Notes under the pieces: generated by a model
Told to the model about the DNA's origin: nothing
The model's database searches: none
Seen by the model: the letters and a program-made list of their open reading frames with translations, nothing else
Made by a program: the position numbers and the translations under genes
IMG/VR virus record: IMGVR_UViG_3300037309_000059
Span: 1-64,000 of that record
From: a virus
DNA length: 64,000 nt
Strand: one strand, 5' to 3'
In this document: positions 18,926-19,400 of the stretch, piece after piece
How the letters are laid out: each line of letters begins with the position of its first letter
Numbering within the stretch: position 1 is the first letter of the stretch

Positions 18926-18996
18926 GCGGCGATGATGGAGCTGCCGGCTACTTCACCGTGAACTGAGAGATGCCGGTCGCGTTTGTTTCTCGTCGC
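18926..18996 (+). ncRNA. Y-RNA-like module 0 (short, hairpin apex)
   Basis: The terminal helix pairs GCGGCGA with TCGTCGC. The internal loop is TGATGGAG on the 5' side and TCGCGTTTGTTTC on the 3' side. The inner helix pairs CCGGC with GCCGG, and the apex is a TTCA/TGAA hairpin. Confidence 0.6.
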
Positions 18997-19037
18997 AACA
19001 GTTTCGCTCCAGCGTGTGTGGAGATGTGCGCAATCAT

Positions 19038-19177
19038 CTGACGATGATGTAGATCAGGAGTTCTTCATTCAAACCGTGGGTCTCAGGTTCGAGTCCTGAC
19101 TTCCGTGCTTCGGCTCGGTAGTAGCTCAGTTGGTAGAGCAATGGTCCAAAAGAGCCTGATCGTTCGTTTCTCGTCAG
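19038..19177 (+). ncRNA. Y-RNA-like module 1 with permuted tRNA-like domain (YrlA-like)
   Basis: The terminal helix pairs CTGACGA with TCGTCAG. The internal loop is TGATGTA (5') and GTTCGTTTC (3'), and the inner helix pairs GATCAGG with CCTGATC. The apex holds a T-arm (TCAGG-TTCGAGT-CCTGA), an acceptor-like stem closed by UUCG, and a D-arm (GCTC-AGTTGGTA-GAGC). Confidence 0.7.
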
Positions 19178-19186
19178 CCTACAAAT

Positions 19187-19256
19187 GCCGGTGATGTAGA
19201 CCTCGCTTCCTTCGTTTCTGGAACGACCAAAGATGCGAGATCGCTTGTTTCCCGGC
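19187..19256 (+). ncRNA. Y-RNA-like module 2 (short, hairpin apex; YrlB-like)
   Basis: The terminal helix pairs GCCGG with CCGGC. The internal loop is TGATGTAGAC (5') and ATCGCTTGTTTC (3'). The inner helix pairs CTCGC with GCGAG, and the apex is a TCGTT/AACGA hairpin. Confidence 0.65.
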
Positions 19257-19266
19257 TGTCGACATT

Positions 19267-19400
19267 GGCGATGATGTAGAGGGCAGTTCCTTCTCCCTGT
19301 AAGAGAGAGGTTGTTGGTTCGAATCCAACCGGCTCCACCATCTATGGGGCCGTAGCTCAATGGTAGAGCGCTAAAGTCCTGTCTTCGCTTGTTTCTCGCC
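19267..19400 (+). ncRNA. Y-RNA-like module 3 with permuted tRNA-like domain (YrlA-like)
   Basis: The terminal helix pairs GGCGA with TCGCC. The internal loop is TGATGTAGA (5') and TTCGCTTGTTTC (3'), and the inner helix pairs GGCAG with CTGTC. The apex holds an anticodon-like hairpin, a T-arm (GTTGG-TTCGAAT-CCAAC), CGGCTCC-ACCA, and then GGGGCCG-TA with a D-arm (GCTC-AATGGTA-GAGC). Confidence 0.7.

What the first reader, a model, noticed from the sequence alone, without database searches (positions are those of the whole stretch)
18926..19400. Four tandem RNA modules share one architecture and a conserved asymmetric internal loop
All four modules have the same layout. A terminal helix of 5 to 7 bp comes first: GCGGCGA/TCGTCGC, CTGACGA/TCGTCAG, GCCGG/CCGGC and GGCGA/TCGCC. 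An asymmetric internal loop follows, with nearly invariant strands. The 5' side is TGATGTAGA (TGATGGAG in module 0) and the 3' side is TCG(C)(T)TTGTTTC. A second helix of 5 to 7 bp comes next: CCGGC/GCCGG, GATCAGG/CCTGATC, CTCGC/GCGAG and GGCAG/CTGTC. The apex is variable. The helices differ in sequence but keep their pairing, while the loop strands are conserved. That is the signature of a protein-binding RNA motif, presumably the Ro-binding site. Modules 0 and 2 are short with hairpin apices, and modules 1 and 3 carry tRNA-like apices, giving an alternating short/long array.
Basis: seen in the sequence. Interest (0 to 1): 0.85.

Follow-up and report, generated by a model that had tools for sequence, protein, structure and literature searches.

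The report
Phage array of four Y RNAs
Just upstream of its Ro60 gene, a temperate phage carries four tandem genes for Y RNAs, the small RNAs that bind Ro60: two short hairpins and two tRNA mimics, one of which looks built to be cut open into a CCA-ended alanine-tRNA look-alike.

Summary
Four modules lie head to tail on the + strand, 43 nt upstream of a phage Ro60 (TROVE+vWA) gene: M0 18926-18996, M1 19038-19177, M2 19187-19256 and M3 19265-19402. All share a terminal helix, a conserved asymmetric loop, a second helix and a variable apex.

The same architecture recurs in about 270 modules at about 100 Ro loci of phages and bacteria, in arrays of 1-7. All 15 helix pairs show compensatory changes. 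The "loop" turns out to be a bulged U, two Watson-Crick pairs (G9-C51, and 10-50 seen as G-C, A-U or C-G), then a 4x7 loop. A further invariant element, YUHCUUC, follows helix 2.

Searching viral contigs with the RNA motif alone returns a Ro gene in 74 of 92 stretches, 73 of them on the same strand.

M1 and M3 are divergent YrlA-type tRNA mimics, significant against Rfam but below its gathering score. M0 and M2 are short hairpin Y RNAs.

One extra point: M3 has a 7-bp acceptor stem with G3·U70, A73 and an encoded CCA. That subclass recurs elsewhere and predicts RNase P opening and possibly alanylation.

The parts
18810..18845 (+). Strong hairpin after the upstream vWA-like gene (17996-18796). 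It is terminator-like but has no U tract. It probably marks the end of the upstream transcription unit.
   Evidence: Coordinates; sequence. The weak Rfam hit to F6 is just this hairpin. The terminator scan did not call it.
18926..18996 (+). M0, a short Y RNA (71 nt). Layout: H1 GCGGCGA/TCGTCGC; bulged U; G-C and A-U pairs; 4x7 loop; H2 GCTGCCGG/CCGGTCGC; CUACUUC; small apex.
   Evidence: No Rfam family matches it.
19007..19023 (+). Small hairpin (CTCCA-GCGTGTG-TGGAG) in the 41-nt spacer between M0 and M1. Its role is unknown. The other spacers are only 9-10 nt.
19038..19177 (+). M1, a YrlA-type Y RNA (140 nt) with a closed tRNA-like domain. T arm 19083-19099. Acceptor-like stem 19100-19121, with two U·U mismatches and a UUCG cap and no CCA. 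D arm 19124-19139.
   Evidence: Rfam YrlA 32.3 bits, E 5.6e-5, full-length alignment. Fold. Dissection.
19187..19256 (+). M2, a short Y RNA (70 nt). Layout: H1 GCCGG/CCGGC; the same loop strands as the other modules; H2 GACCTCGC/GCGAGATC with one C·A mismatch; UUCCUUC; hairpin apex.
19265..19402 (+). M3, a YrlA-type Y RNA (138 nt with a 7-bp H1) with an openable tRNA-like domain.
- V (anticodon-like) arm: 19291-19307
- T arm: 19313-19329
- Acceptor 3' strand CGGCUCC: 19330-19336
- A73: 19337
- Encoded CCA: 19338-19340
- Linker UCUAU: 19341-19345
- Acceptor 5' strand GGGGCCG, giving G3·U70: 19346-19352
- D arm: 19355-19369
   Evidence: Rfam YrlA 36.4 bits, E 3.8e-6. tmRNA_permuted 29.7 bits over the T arm, acceptor and CCA. 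tRNA 26.7 bits on the 5' part (all). Fold. Dissection.
19444..20154 (+). N-terminal half of the phage Ro60 (TROVE) gene. Homology to intact Ro ends at Trp 20116-20118. The last 11 codons and the stop come from the insertion.
20119..20976 (+). An 858-nt insertion of lower GC (51%) that splits Ro. It carries a 279-aa ORF (20129-20968) that looks like a homing endonuclease. It supplies GGAG-N7-ATG (ATG at 20971) to restart the C-terminal half. This is context, not part of the RNA array.
20971..21660 (+). C-terminal half of Ro60: the end of the TROVE domain plus the vWA domain.

Best explanation
The 475-nt region is an array of four genes for Y RNAs, the small non-coding RNAs that bind Ro60. It belongs to a temperate phage or prophage of a high-GC host.

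Shown: each RNA closes its 5' and 3' ends into a stem. From the outside in, the stem has a 5-7 bp helix, a bulged U, two Watson-Crick pairs, a 4x7 internal loop with near-invariant bases, an 8-position second helix and an invariant UNCUUC junction. Shown by genomic linkage only: this module is tied to Ro.

Inferred: the conserved bulged helix and loop is the docking site for the phage Ro60 ring. The four different apices give Ro four different partners or regulators.
- M0 and M2 are minimal hairpin Y RNAs.
- M1 is a closed, circularly permuted tRNA mimic, the classical YrlA type.
- M3 is a permuted tRNA mimic with a 7-bp acceptor stem, G3·U70, A73 and an encoded CCA followed by a 5-nt linker.

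For M3, I infer that RNase P cuts 5' of G19346 and that 3' trimming exposes the CCA. The result would be a two-piece RNA held together by its helices, as published for Mycobacterium smegmatis YrlA.

The array is probably transcribed as one precursor, possibly together with Ro, and processed into units. By analogy with Deinococcus, Salmonella and Thermus phage phiLo, the Ro-Y RNA particles would recruit host PNPase or another RNA-handling factor during infection or induction.
For: Structure.
- Minimum-free-energy folds recover the helices.
- On 42 modules from 17 loci, 92.9% of cells are paired against 63.8% after shuffling. 16 of 17 pairs have double changes. The covariation score is 0.763 against 0.191 (0 of 500 shuffles reach it). 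Slid controls give 45-55% paired.
- RNAalifold finds the same structure independently.
- Pair 10-50 was not used to select modules. It reads GC 222, CG 6, AU 5, GU 5 and 2 mismatches over 240 modules.

Ro linkage.
- 77 of 80 bacterial-genome loci chosen by Ro homology carry 1-7 modules.
- So do the 12 IMG/VR loci that include sequence upstream of Ro, and most of the GenBank phage loci examined.
- An RNA-motif-only scan of IMG/VR gives 92 stretches. 74 of them hold a Ro homolog, 73 on the same strand, at a median of about 180 nt.

Ro identity.

YrlA relationship: full-length Rfam alignments at E 3.8e-6 and 5.6e-5, with the invariant GUAGCUCA..GGUAGAGC D arm and GGUUCGA T loop.

Not coding: GC falls to 51-55% in a 67% GC genome. 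The overlapping minus-strand ORF has GC3 0.53, against 0.92 in the neighbouring genes.

Literature.
- Y RNAs lie within 4 kb of Ro on the same strand. M. smegmatis YrlA and YrlB are processed from one precursor upstream of rsr, and its YrlA is cut by RNase P and receives CCA (PMC4201824).
- Thermus phage phiLo Ro60 binds two upstream Y-like RNAs and host PNPase (PMC12135203).
Against: - No binding, expression or processing data exist for this locus.
- The published 5' motif GNCGAAN0-1G is not matched exactly. The window has GGCGAUG, GACGAUG and GCCGGUG.
- Both YrlA hits are far below Rfam's gathering score (36 and 32 bits against 69). Nothing was reported at gathering threshold.
- No sigma-70-type promoter was found upstream of M0, and no terminator was called. 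The transcription unit is therefore inferred.
- The module finder required partial pairing, at least 4 of 5 inner H1 pairs and at least 6 of 8 H2 pairs. Pair percentages are somewhat inflated. The unselected pairs (columns 1-58, 2-57, 9-51, 10-50) still hold.
- The Ro gene is split by an insertion, so a functional Ro in this phage is itself an inference.
Confidence: 0.85

Rival explanations
1. The modules act mainly in cis, as a structured leader of the Ro mRNA. Ro would bind its own 5' untranslated region to autoregulate translation or stability, and no stable free small RNAs would be released.
For: The array ends 43 nt before the Ro start with no terminator between them. In most relatives the array sits directly upstream of Ro on the same strand.
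Against: In Microcystis phage Mvi-JY20 the paired modules lie downstream of Ro, and in crAss-like phages the 5' motif does too. A pure leader does not explain complete tRNA-like domains with acceptor stems, tetraloop caps or an encoded CCA. In M. smegmatis the upstream RNAs are processed from a precursor into stable Ro-bound RNAs (PMC4201824). The two readings do not exclude each other.
Confidence: 0.08
2. M1 and M3 are permuted or degenerate tRNA genes that serve translation or tRNA-directed functions independently of Ro. M0 and M2 would be unrelated hairpins.
For: The Rfam tRNA model gives 26.7 bits on the 5' part of M3. ARAGORN and GenBank annotators call tRNAs inside homologous modules of other phages. 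M3 carries G3·U70, A73 and CCA.
Against: ARAGORN finds no tRNA here, and the tRNA score is below gathering. There is no anticodon arm in the normal position. The stem in its place is the conserved module that the short hairpins M0 and M2 also carry, and that module tracks Ro genes. Covariation supports pairing of the outer 5' strand with the far 3' end, not with the acceptor 3' strand.
Confidence: 0.03
3. The region is protein-coding (minus-strand ORF 19034-19402, 122 aa), or it is a chance or selfish repeat with no RNA function.
For: An ORF of 122 aa spans most of the array on the minus strand.
Against: GC3 of that ORF is 0.53, against 0.92 in real genes of this genome. Related loci keep base pairing rather than a reading frame: module number varies from 1 to 7 and helices change by compensatory substitutions. 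Chance is excluded.
Confidence: 0.01

Closest known systems
YrlA (Y RNA-like A; Rfam RF02553). Chen et al. 2014, PMC4201824; structure in bioRxiv 10.1101/312249.
   Same: Encoded next to Ro60 on the same strand. The 5' and 3' ends pair into a stem with an asymmetric loop. The apex is a circularly permuted tRNA mimic, in the order V arm, T arm, acceptor-like stem, D arm, with the same near-invariant T and D sequences. M1 has a closed acceptor stem, as most YrlAs do. M3 resembles M. smegmatis YrlA, which has a 7-bp acceptor and is cut by RNase P.
   Different: Scores are 32-36 bits against a gathering score of 69. The Ro-proximal module differs. Here it is U-bulge + GG/CC (GA/UC in the window) + YGNA/GNNNRUU + UUACUUC. 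The Rfam consensus has GGCGA-AUGC...AAACUUG-UCGCC, and the published motif is GNCGAAN0-1G. M3 encodes its CCA and has G3·U70/A73. Neither paper mentions those features, and M. smegmatis YrlA acquires its CCA after transcription.
YrlB / Yrn2-type short Y RNAs (Salmonella, M. smegmatis, D. radiodurans)
   Same: A second, shorter hairpin Y RNA encoded beside YrlA and Ro. In M. smegmatis it is processed from the same precursor.
   Different: No sequence family exists to test against. M0 and M2 share their whole Ro-proximal module with the long RNAs of the same array. There are two of them, interleaved with the long ones.
Yrl1 and Yrl2 of Thermus phage phiLo (PMC12135203)
   Same: Phage-encoded Y-like RNAs directly upstream of a phage Ro60. 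That Ro60 is the closest solved structure to the window's Ro (E 3.7e-17). They were shown to bind the phage Ro60 and host PNPase.
   Different: They were defined by a CGAA motif in a bulge, there are two of them, and no tRNA-like domain is described. The window has four, uses CGAU/CGGU, and two of them carry tRNA-like domains.
tRNA-like domain of tmRNA, including two-piece tmRNA from permuted genes, and tRNA-Ala
   Same: The M3 acceptor GGGGCCG/CGGCUCC-ACCA has G3·U70 and A73, as tmRNA and tRNA-Ala do. The gene order is permuted: T arm, acceptor 3' strand, CCA, linker, acceptor 5' strand. The Rfam tmRNA_permuted model aligns to it at 29.7 bits, E 4.9e-4.
   Different: The score is below gathering (47). 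There is no tag reading frame or pseudoknots, and ARAGORN finds no tmRNA. The rest of the molecule is a Ro-binding stem.

Membership tests
Y RNA (Ro60-associated non-coding RNA) | Encoded close to a Ro60 gene on the same strand (within 4 kb in bacteria and phages) | tested here: met
   The array ends 43 nt upstream of the Ro start at 19444, on the same strand. The same arrangement holds at about 100 related loci.
Y RNA (Ro60-associated non-coding RNA) | The 5' and 3' ends pair into a long stem that contains a conserved bulged helix or internal loop, the Ro site | tested here: met
   Folds. Covariation. RNAalifold. A bulged U plus a 4x7 loop with invariant G9, G12, A14, U49, C51.
Y RNA (Ro60-associated non-coding RNA) | Physically bound and stabilised by Ro60 | not testable with these tools
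   Only genomic linkage is available.
Y RNA (Ro60-associated non-coding RNA) | Size of about 80-130 nt | tested here: inconclusive
   M1 is 140 nt and M3 is 134-138 nt, which fit roughly. M0 is 71 nt and M2 is 70 nt, which are shorter. The true ends are not mapped.
YrlA (Rfam RF02553) | Score at or above Rfam's gathering threshold (69 bits) | tested here: not met
   M3 scores 36.4 bits and M1 32.3 bits. Both E-values are significant in the 901-nt scan and both alignments are full length. No YrlA hit at gathering threshold.
YrlA (Rfam RF02553) | GNCGAAN0-1G motif near the 5' end (Chen et al. 2014) | tested here: not met
   The window has GGCGAUG (M0, M3), GACGAUG (M1) and GCCGGUG (M2). The clade consensus is GNYGR-U-GGYG. 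It is similar to the published motif but not a match.
YrlA (Rfam RF02553) | Near-invariant T and D stem-loops in the permuted order T, acceptor-like stem, D | tested here: met
   M1: UCAGG-UUCGAGU-CCUGA ... GCUC-AGUUGGUA-GAGC. M3: GUUGG-UUCGAAU-CCAAC ... GCUC-AAUGGUA-GAGC.
YrlA (Rfam RF02553) | tRNA-like tertiary fold and tRNA modifications (TruB, DusA) | not testable with these tools
   The bases that would make the contacts are present (U8, G18G19 in the D loop, UUCGA in the T loop). The fold and the modifications were not tested.
tRNA (RF00005 / ARAGORN) | Cloverleaf scoring at or above gathering (29 bits), or an ARAGORN call | tested here: not met
   26.7 bits on 19267-19337, with mismatched acceptor and D stems. 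ARAGORN finds only tRNA-Gly at 28040.
Two-piece (permuted) tmRNA | Score at or above gathering (47 bits), a tag reading frame, or an ARAGORN tmRNA call | tested here: not met
   29.7 bits, covering only the T arm, acceptor and CCA. No tmRNA call.
Alanine-acceptor identity (tRNA-Ala / tmRNA type) | G3·U70 in a 7-bp acceptor stem, A73 and a 3' CCA | tested here: met
   M3 reads GGGGCCG/CGGCUCC-A-CCA. Among 85 related modules with a perfect 7-bp acceptor, 16 have G3·U70. Those 16 are enriched for A73 (10 of 16, against 7 of 69 others) and for long linkers.
Alanine-acceptor identity (tRNA-Ala / tmRNA type) | RNase P opening of the stem and charging by AlaRS | not testable with these tools
   Inference only. 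The precedent for cleavage and CCA addition is M. smegmatis YrlA.

The most novel reading that the evidence does not exclude
M3 belongs to a recurrent subclass of Ro-linked tRNA mimics. Its features are a 7-bp acceptor starting GGG, G3·U70, A73, a linker instead of a tetraloop, and in some members an encoded CCA. The subclass is seen here, in Caulobacter phage CcrColossus, and in Acidobacteriota, Dormibacterota and Hyphomonadaceae genomes.

In this reading, RNase P opens these RNAs into a two-piece molecule whose free CCA end is charged with alanine by host AlaRS. That would be a Ro60-tethered aminoacyl-tRNA or tmRNA mimic, and it would give the long-unexplained tRNA-like domain of bacterial Y RNAs a concrete biochemical activity.
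Probability: 0.2. Interest if true: 0.8.

Novelty: new variant of a known kind. Interest (0 to 1): 0.5.

Why it matters
Y RNAs are the obligate partners of the Ro60 autoantigen. What the bacterial tRNA-like domain does is still an open question.

This locus, with the roughly 100 related loci found from it, defines a large Ro/Y RNA clade that Rfam's curated threshold does not capture. It has a sharply conserved docking module that can be tested by mutation. It comes in arrays of up to seven differently tipped RNAs.

It also includes a subclass whose sequence predicts RNase P opening, a CCA end and alanine identity. That prediction turns the speculation that Y RNAs might be aminoacylated into a direct experiment.

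There is a practical consequence too. GenBank, ARAGORN or both call tRNA-Gln, tRNA-Ser and tRNA-Asn inside these modules in three phage genomes (CcrColossus, Gurke, Usme). The rest of these arrays is unannotated.

Tried and rejected
- blastn (distant mode) of 18800-19450 against 50,697 phage records found no match. DNA-level relatives are absent there.
- A scan of IMG/VR with the window-specific motif TGATGTAGANNNNNNNTYCTTC gave only single matches, presumably chance. None had a module.
- Rfam at gathering threshold found nothing in the array.
- The sigma-70 promoter and terminator scan found nothing useful. A possible TTGACC-N17-GAAAGA upstream of M0 is too weak to claim.
- A group I intron as the explanation for the split Ro is rejected. 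There is no Rfam hit even at E 5. No junction choice gives both a U before the 5' splice site and a terminal G.
- An intein is rejected. The insert ORF is in another frame and the N half ends in a stop.
- A kink-turn (C/D box) reading of GAUGAUGUAGA is rejected. The 3' strand has no CUGA partner, and the snoRNA hit has E 4.6.
- tRNA and tmRNA membership is rejected.
- The protein search found no relative between 68% and 100% identity. Conservation of the array at short evolutionary distance could therefore not be tested.
- The review by Sim et al. 2020 (PMC10870794) is not held. Whether arrays or G3·U70 are discussed there could not be checked.
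Full report
**1. What is there**

The window is a 66.7% GC temperate phage or prophage. It encodes a primase/helicase, an integrase next to tRNA-Gly, a capsid-protease fusion and tail genes. No deposited phage is close: the capsid is at most 40% identical to any. A contig from Logan run SRR12687059 is identical over window positions 16444-20227.

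Between a vWA-like gene (17996-18796) and a Ro60 gene lies a 650-nt gap. There GC falls to 51-55%. Inside the gap four modules lie head to tail on the + strand:
- M0, 18926-18996
- M1, 19038-19177
- M2, 19187-19256
- M3, 19267-19400 (19265-19402 with a 7-bp outer helix)

**2. Checking the observation**

Minimum-free-energy folding recovers the outer and second helices in each module alone and in the 531-nt region as a whole.

The two loop motifs are far over-represented and clustered. TGATGKAG occurs 9 times against 2.5 expected, with 4 of the 9 in the array. TYGTTTCYC occurs 4 times, all in the array.

I used the loops as anchors and asked how often the 5 outer and 8 inner flanking positions pair. 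A random anchor pair in this window reaches 12 of 13 with P = 1.65e-4. All four modules reach 12 or 13.

The minus-strand ORF that spans the array has GC3 0.53, against 0.92 in the neighbouring genes. It is not coding.

**3. The neighbouring gene is Ro60**

The ORF starting at 19444 has relatives annotated as TROVE or RNA-binding proteins in Xanthomonas, Caulobacter, Brevundimonas, Microcystis, Ralstonia and crAss-like phages, at 38-56% identity.

The gene is interrupted (see section 9). With the 858-nt insertion removed, the 452-aa protein scores 42.7 bits against Pfam TROVE (cut-off 23), and the match runs across the junction. It also has a vWA_Ro60 match below Pfam's cut-off (20.5 bits against 27.7). 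It matches the Ro60 of Thermus phage phiLo (PDB 9KOP/9L5Y) at E 3.7e-17.

**4. The module is a conserved, covarying RNA structure linked to Ro**

I collected Ro loci from three sources: IMG/VR (13 loci), GenBank phages (8 loci) and one genome per species (80 loci).

Almost all carry the same module, nearly always just upstream of Ro on the same strand, in arrays of 1-7. Of the 80 genome loci, 77 have at least one. Caulobacter phage CcrColossus has seven, and Xylella phage Usme has four paired modules plus a fifth 5' motif. In all there are about 270 distinct modules.

The consensus, from the outside in, is:
- H1, 5-7 bp
- U8 G9 G10 Y11 G12 N13 A14
- H2, 8 positions, usually G....CGG
- UUACUUC
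- the apex
- the 3' strand of H2
- G43 N N N R U U C50 C51
- the 3' strand of H1

On a gap-free alignment of 42 modules from 17 loci:
- All 15 helix pairs show compensatory double changes.
- 91.9% of cells pair, against 60.1% after shuffling.
- The covariation score is 0.83 against 0.21, and 0 of 500 shuffles reach it.
- Sliding the partner by 1-3 columns drops pairing to 38-50%.

My finder demanded partial pairing, so these percentages are somewhat inflated. The unselected outer pairs still pair with several pair types, in 29 and 34 of 42 sequences.

G9-C51 is invariant. Columns 10 and 50 covary as Watson-Crick pairs: GC 222, CG 6, AU 5, GU 5, with only 2 mismatches in 240 modules. On the 42-module alignment they read GC 36, AU 5, CG 1 with none unpaired. 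RNAalifold predicts the same structure unaided.

The window is the rare A10-U50 variant, which is why it reads UGAUG.../...UUUC instead of UGGUG.../...UUCC. A clade represented by L223, L224 and L008 uses C10-G50.

The docking element is therefore: helix, bulged U, two pairs, a 4x7 internal loop with invariant G12, A14 and U49, then helix 2. That is a bulged, distorted helix, as in metazoan Y RNAs (background in PMC12135203).

The association also holds in the reverse direction. A scan of all IMG/VR contigs with the RNA motif alone (TGGTGWAGNNNNCGGTTACTTC) returned 92 stretches. 74 of them contain a Ro homolog, 73 on the same strand, at a median of about 180 nt. Several of the remaining 18 are cut off by a contig end near the motif.

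**5. What the four RNAs are**

M1 and M3 align over the full length of Rfam YrlA at E 5.6e-5 and 3.8e-6. The scores, 32 and 36 bits, are below the gathering score of 69. Relatives upstream of other Ro genes behave the same way, at 32-47 bits.

Both carry the near-invariant YrlA T arm and D arm in the permuted order V arm, T arm, acceptor-like stem, D arm. This is exactly what Chen et al. 2014 describe for YrlA. The crystal-structure paper calls it a circularly permuted tRNA.

M0 and M2 have the same docking module but only a small hairpin apex. In that they resemble the short second Y RNAs (YrlB, Yrn2) found beside YrlA in Salmonella, M. smegmatis and Deinococcus.

The published 5' motif GNCGAAN0-1G is only approximated here (GGCGAUG, GACGAUG, GCCGGUG). 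The loop sizes and sequences also differ from the Rfam consensus. I therefore file the RNAs as a divergent variant, not as members by Rfam's criterion.

The short/long alternation is real here but is not a rule in related arrays.

**6. Most likely mechanism**

What is shown:
- the conserved secondary structure
- the tRNA-like layout
- the tight two-way genomic linkage to Ro

What is inferred:
- The array is transcribed from just downstream of the strong hairpin at 18810-18845. Relatives have clear TTGACA-N17-TAnnnT promoters immediately before their first module. The window has no convincing one.
- It is possibly co-transcribed with Ro and is processed into four RNAs. M. smegmatis YrlA and YrlB are processed this way from one precursor.
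- Each RNA docks on Ro through the bulged helix.
- The four apices give the Ro particle different partners. Host PNPase is the precedent, in Deinococcus, Salmonella and phage phiLo.

**7. M3 looks built to be opened**

After its T arm, M3 reads CGGCUCC-A-CCA-UCUAU-GGGGCCG-UA-(D arm). That is a perfect 7-bp acceptor stem with G3·U70, discriminator A73, an encoded CCA, a 5-nt linker and U at position -1. Rfam's permuted-tmRNA model aligns to exactly this part, at 29.7 bits and E 4.9e-4.

M1, in contrast, has an irregular acceptor-like stem capped by UUCG, with no CCA.

Across the related modules, 85 have a perfect 7-bp acceptor. Sixteen of those have G3·U70, and these form a distinct class:
- 13 of 16 start with GGG.
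- 10 of 16 have A73, against 7 of 69 others.
- All have linkers of 7-41 nt, whereas most of the others are closed by a tetraloop.

Positions 4-7 covary while G3·U70 is kept. NCCA is encoded at the expected place in 8 of the 128 modules whose acceptor stem pairs at 6 or more of 7 positions (about 2 expected by chance). These include CcrColossus (CGCGUCC-ACCA-30 nt-GGGCGUG) and L004 (loop exactly GCCA).

The literature says most YrlAs are poor RNase P substrates. The exception is M. smegmatis YrlA, which has a 7-bp stem, is cleaved by RNase P and then receives CCA. Aminoacylation was raised there only as a possibility.

G3·U70 as the major alanine identity element, sufficient even in minihelices and used by tmRNA, is established knowledge. 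That M3 is cleaved is therefore a reasonable inference, which I put at about 0.5. That it is alanylated is a speculative but testable reading, at about 0.2.

**8. Rivals**

- A purely cis-acting Ro leader is possible as an added role. It does not explain the modules found downstream of Ro in some phages, or the complete tRNA-like domains.
- Genuine tRNA genes are excluded by ARAGORN, by Rfam and by the covariation, which pairs the outer strands with each other.
- Coding sequence and chance are excluded by composition, covariation and statistics.

**9. Side findings**

- The Ro gene is split after Trp at 20116-20118 by an 858-nt insertion of 51% GC. The insertion carries a 279-aa ORF with weak helix-turn-helix and NUMOD3 matches and a C-terminal nuclease-like region. 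It supplies a stop for the N half and GGAG-N7-ATG for the C half.
- A Ro gene only 57% identical (L223, L224) is split at the same site (W | ITNHF) by a homologous ORF. Another genome (L225) has Ro as two abutting ORFs with no insert. No group I intron is detectable. This looks like a homing-endonuclease gene that splits its target.
- In L009, L011 and L012 the same docking module sits, capped by a loop, where the anticodon arm of an otherwise ordinary tRNA cloverleaf would be. This is the unpermuted counterpart of YrlA.
- The 5' two-thirds of the long modules follow tRNA numbering: a 7-nt strand, then U8 R9 G10 Y11 .. A14 R15, an anticodon-like arm, a 5-nt variable loop, the T arm and the acceptor 3' strand. 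ARAGORN, GenBank or both therefore call false tRNAs there in Usme, Gurke and CcrColossus. The layout hints at an origin by tandem tRNA duplication.

**10. Verdict**

The feature belongs to a known kind, Ro-associated Y RNAs of the YrlA and short-hairpin types. It represents a divergent, widespread clade that current annotation largely misses, with a distinct docking consensus, multi-gene arrays and an alanine-acceptor-like openable subclass. Interest is moderate at 0.5. It would be high if the CCA-ended or alanylated reading of M3 proves true.

Noticed in passing
window 19444-21660 (insertion 20119-20976); L223 2749-4758; L224; L225 3001-4292: The Ro60 gene is split in two by an 858-nt insertion of lower GC. 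The insertion encodes a 279-aa ORF that looks like a homing endonuclease, and it supplies a stop for the N half and an RBS plus ATG for the C half. A homologous ORF splits a Ro gene only 57% identical at the same W|ITNHF site. Another genome has Ro as two abutting ORFs with no insert. No group I intron signal was found.
   Followed up: partly
L009 2683-2809, L011 1520-1644, L012 2726-2850: These are unpermuted versions of the tRNA-like Y RNA. An ordinary acceptor stem, D arm and T arm are present, with the Ro-type docking module, capped by a loop, in place of the anticodon arm. Rfam scores them as tRNA at 41-49 bits, with insertions that bring them to about 125 nt. ARAGORN does not call them.
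   Followed up: partly
L015 (Caulobacter phage CcrColossus JX100810) 311-1414; L016 (Brevundimonas phage Gurke); L014 (Xylella phage Usme): CcrColossus carries seven tandem modules upstream of its TROVE gene. None is annotated as such. tRNA calls inside these arrays are actually parts of YrlA-like modules: tRNA-Gln in the CcrColossus GenBank record, tRNA-Ser in Gurke (GenBank and ARAGORN) and tRNA-Asn in Usme (ARAGORN only).
   Followed up: partly
window 19267-19340 and the homologous 5' parts of long modules in L001, L013-L016: The 5' portion of the long modules follows canonical tRNA numbering. The outer strand is 7 nt, followed by U8 G9 G10 Y11 G12 N13 A14 G15. Twelve nt further on come a 5-bp/7-nt-loop arm (often CU-NNN-AA), then AGGUC, the T arm and the acceptor 3' strand. 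This suggests the family arose from a tandem tRNA duplication.
   Followed up: no
alignment A1, columns 23-29; window 18948-18954, 19060-19066, 19207-19213, 19287-19293: An almost invariant UUACUUC (YUHCUUC in the window) directly follows the 5' strand of helix 2 in short and long modules alike. Its last three bases start the next stem. The reason for its sequence conservation is unexplained. It could be a second protein contact or a tertiary contact.
   Followed up: no
alignment columns 13 and 47 (loop positions), 240 modules: There is non-Watson-Crick covariation inside the 4x7 loop: U13 goes with G47, and A13 with A47 or G47 (mutual information 0.25). This suggests a specific non-canonical pair.
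   Followed up: no
L018 (Microcystis phage Mvi-JY20) 2891-3103; L020 and L021 (crAss-like phages) about 2980-3230: In these phages the module (Mvi-JY20) or its 5' motif (crAss-like phages) lies downstream of the Ro gene rather than upstream. The family therefore spans hosts from cyanobacteria to Bacteroides.
   Followed up: no
window 26590-28113: A tyrosine integrase gene (26590-27813, minus strand) lies next to a complete tRNA-Gly(CCC) at 28040-28113, with phage genes on both sides. This is probably the attachment region of a temperate phage.
   Followed up: no
window 18910-18923 and 19007-19023: Two small extra hairpins: GCCC-GAAAGA-GGGC immediately before M0, and CTCCA-GCGTGTG-TGGAG in the unusually long 41-nt M0-M1 spacer. 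They may be processing or stability elements.
   Followed up: no
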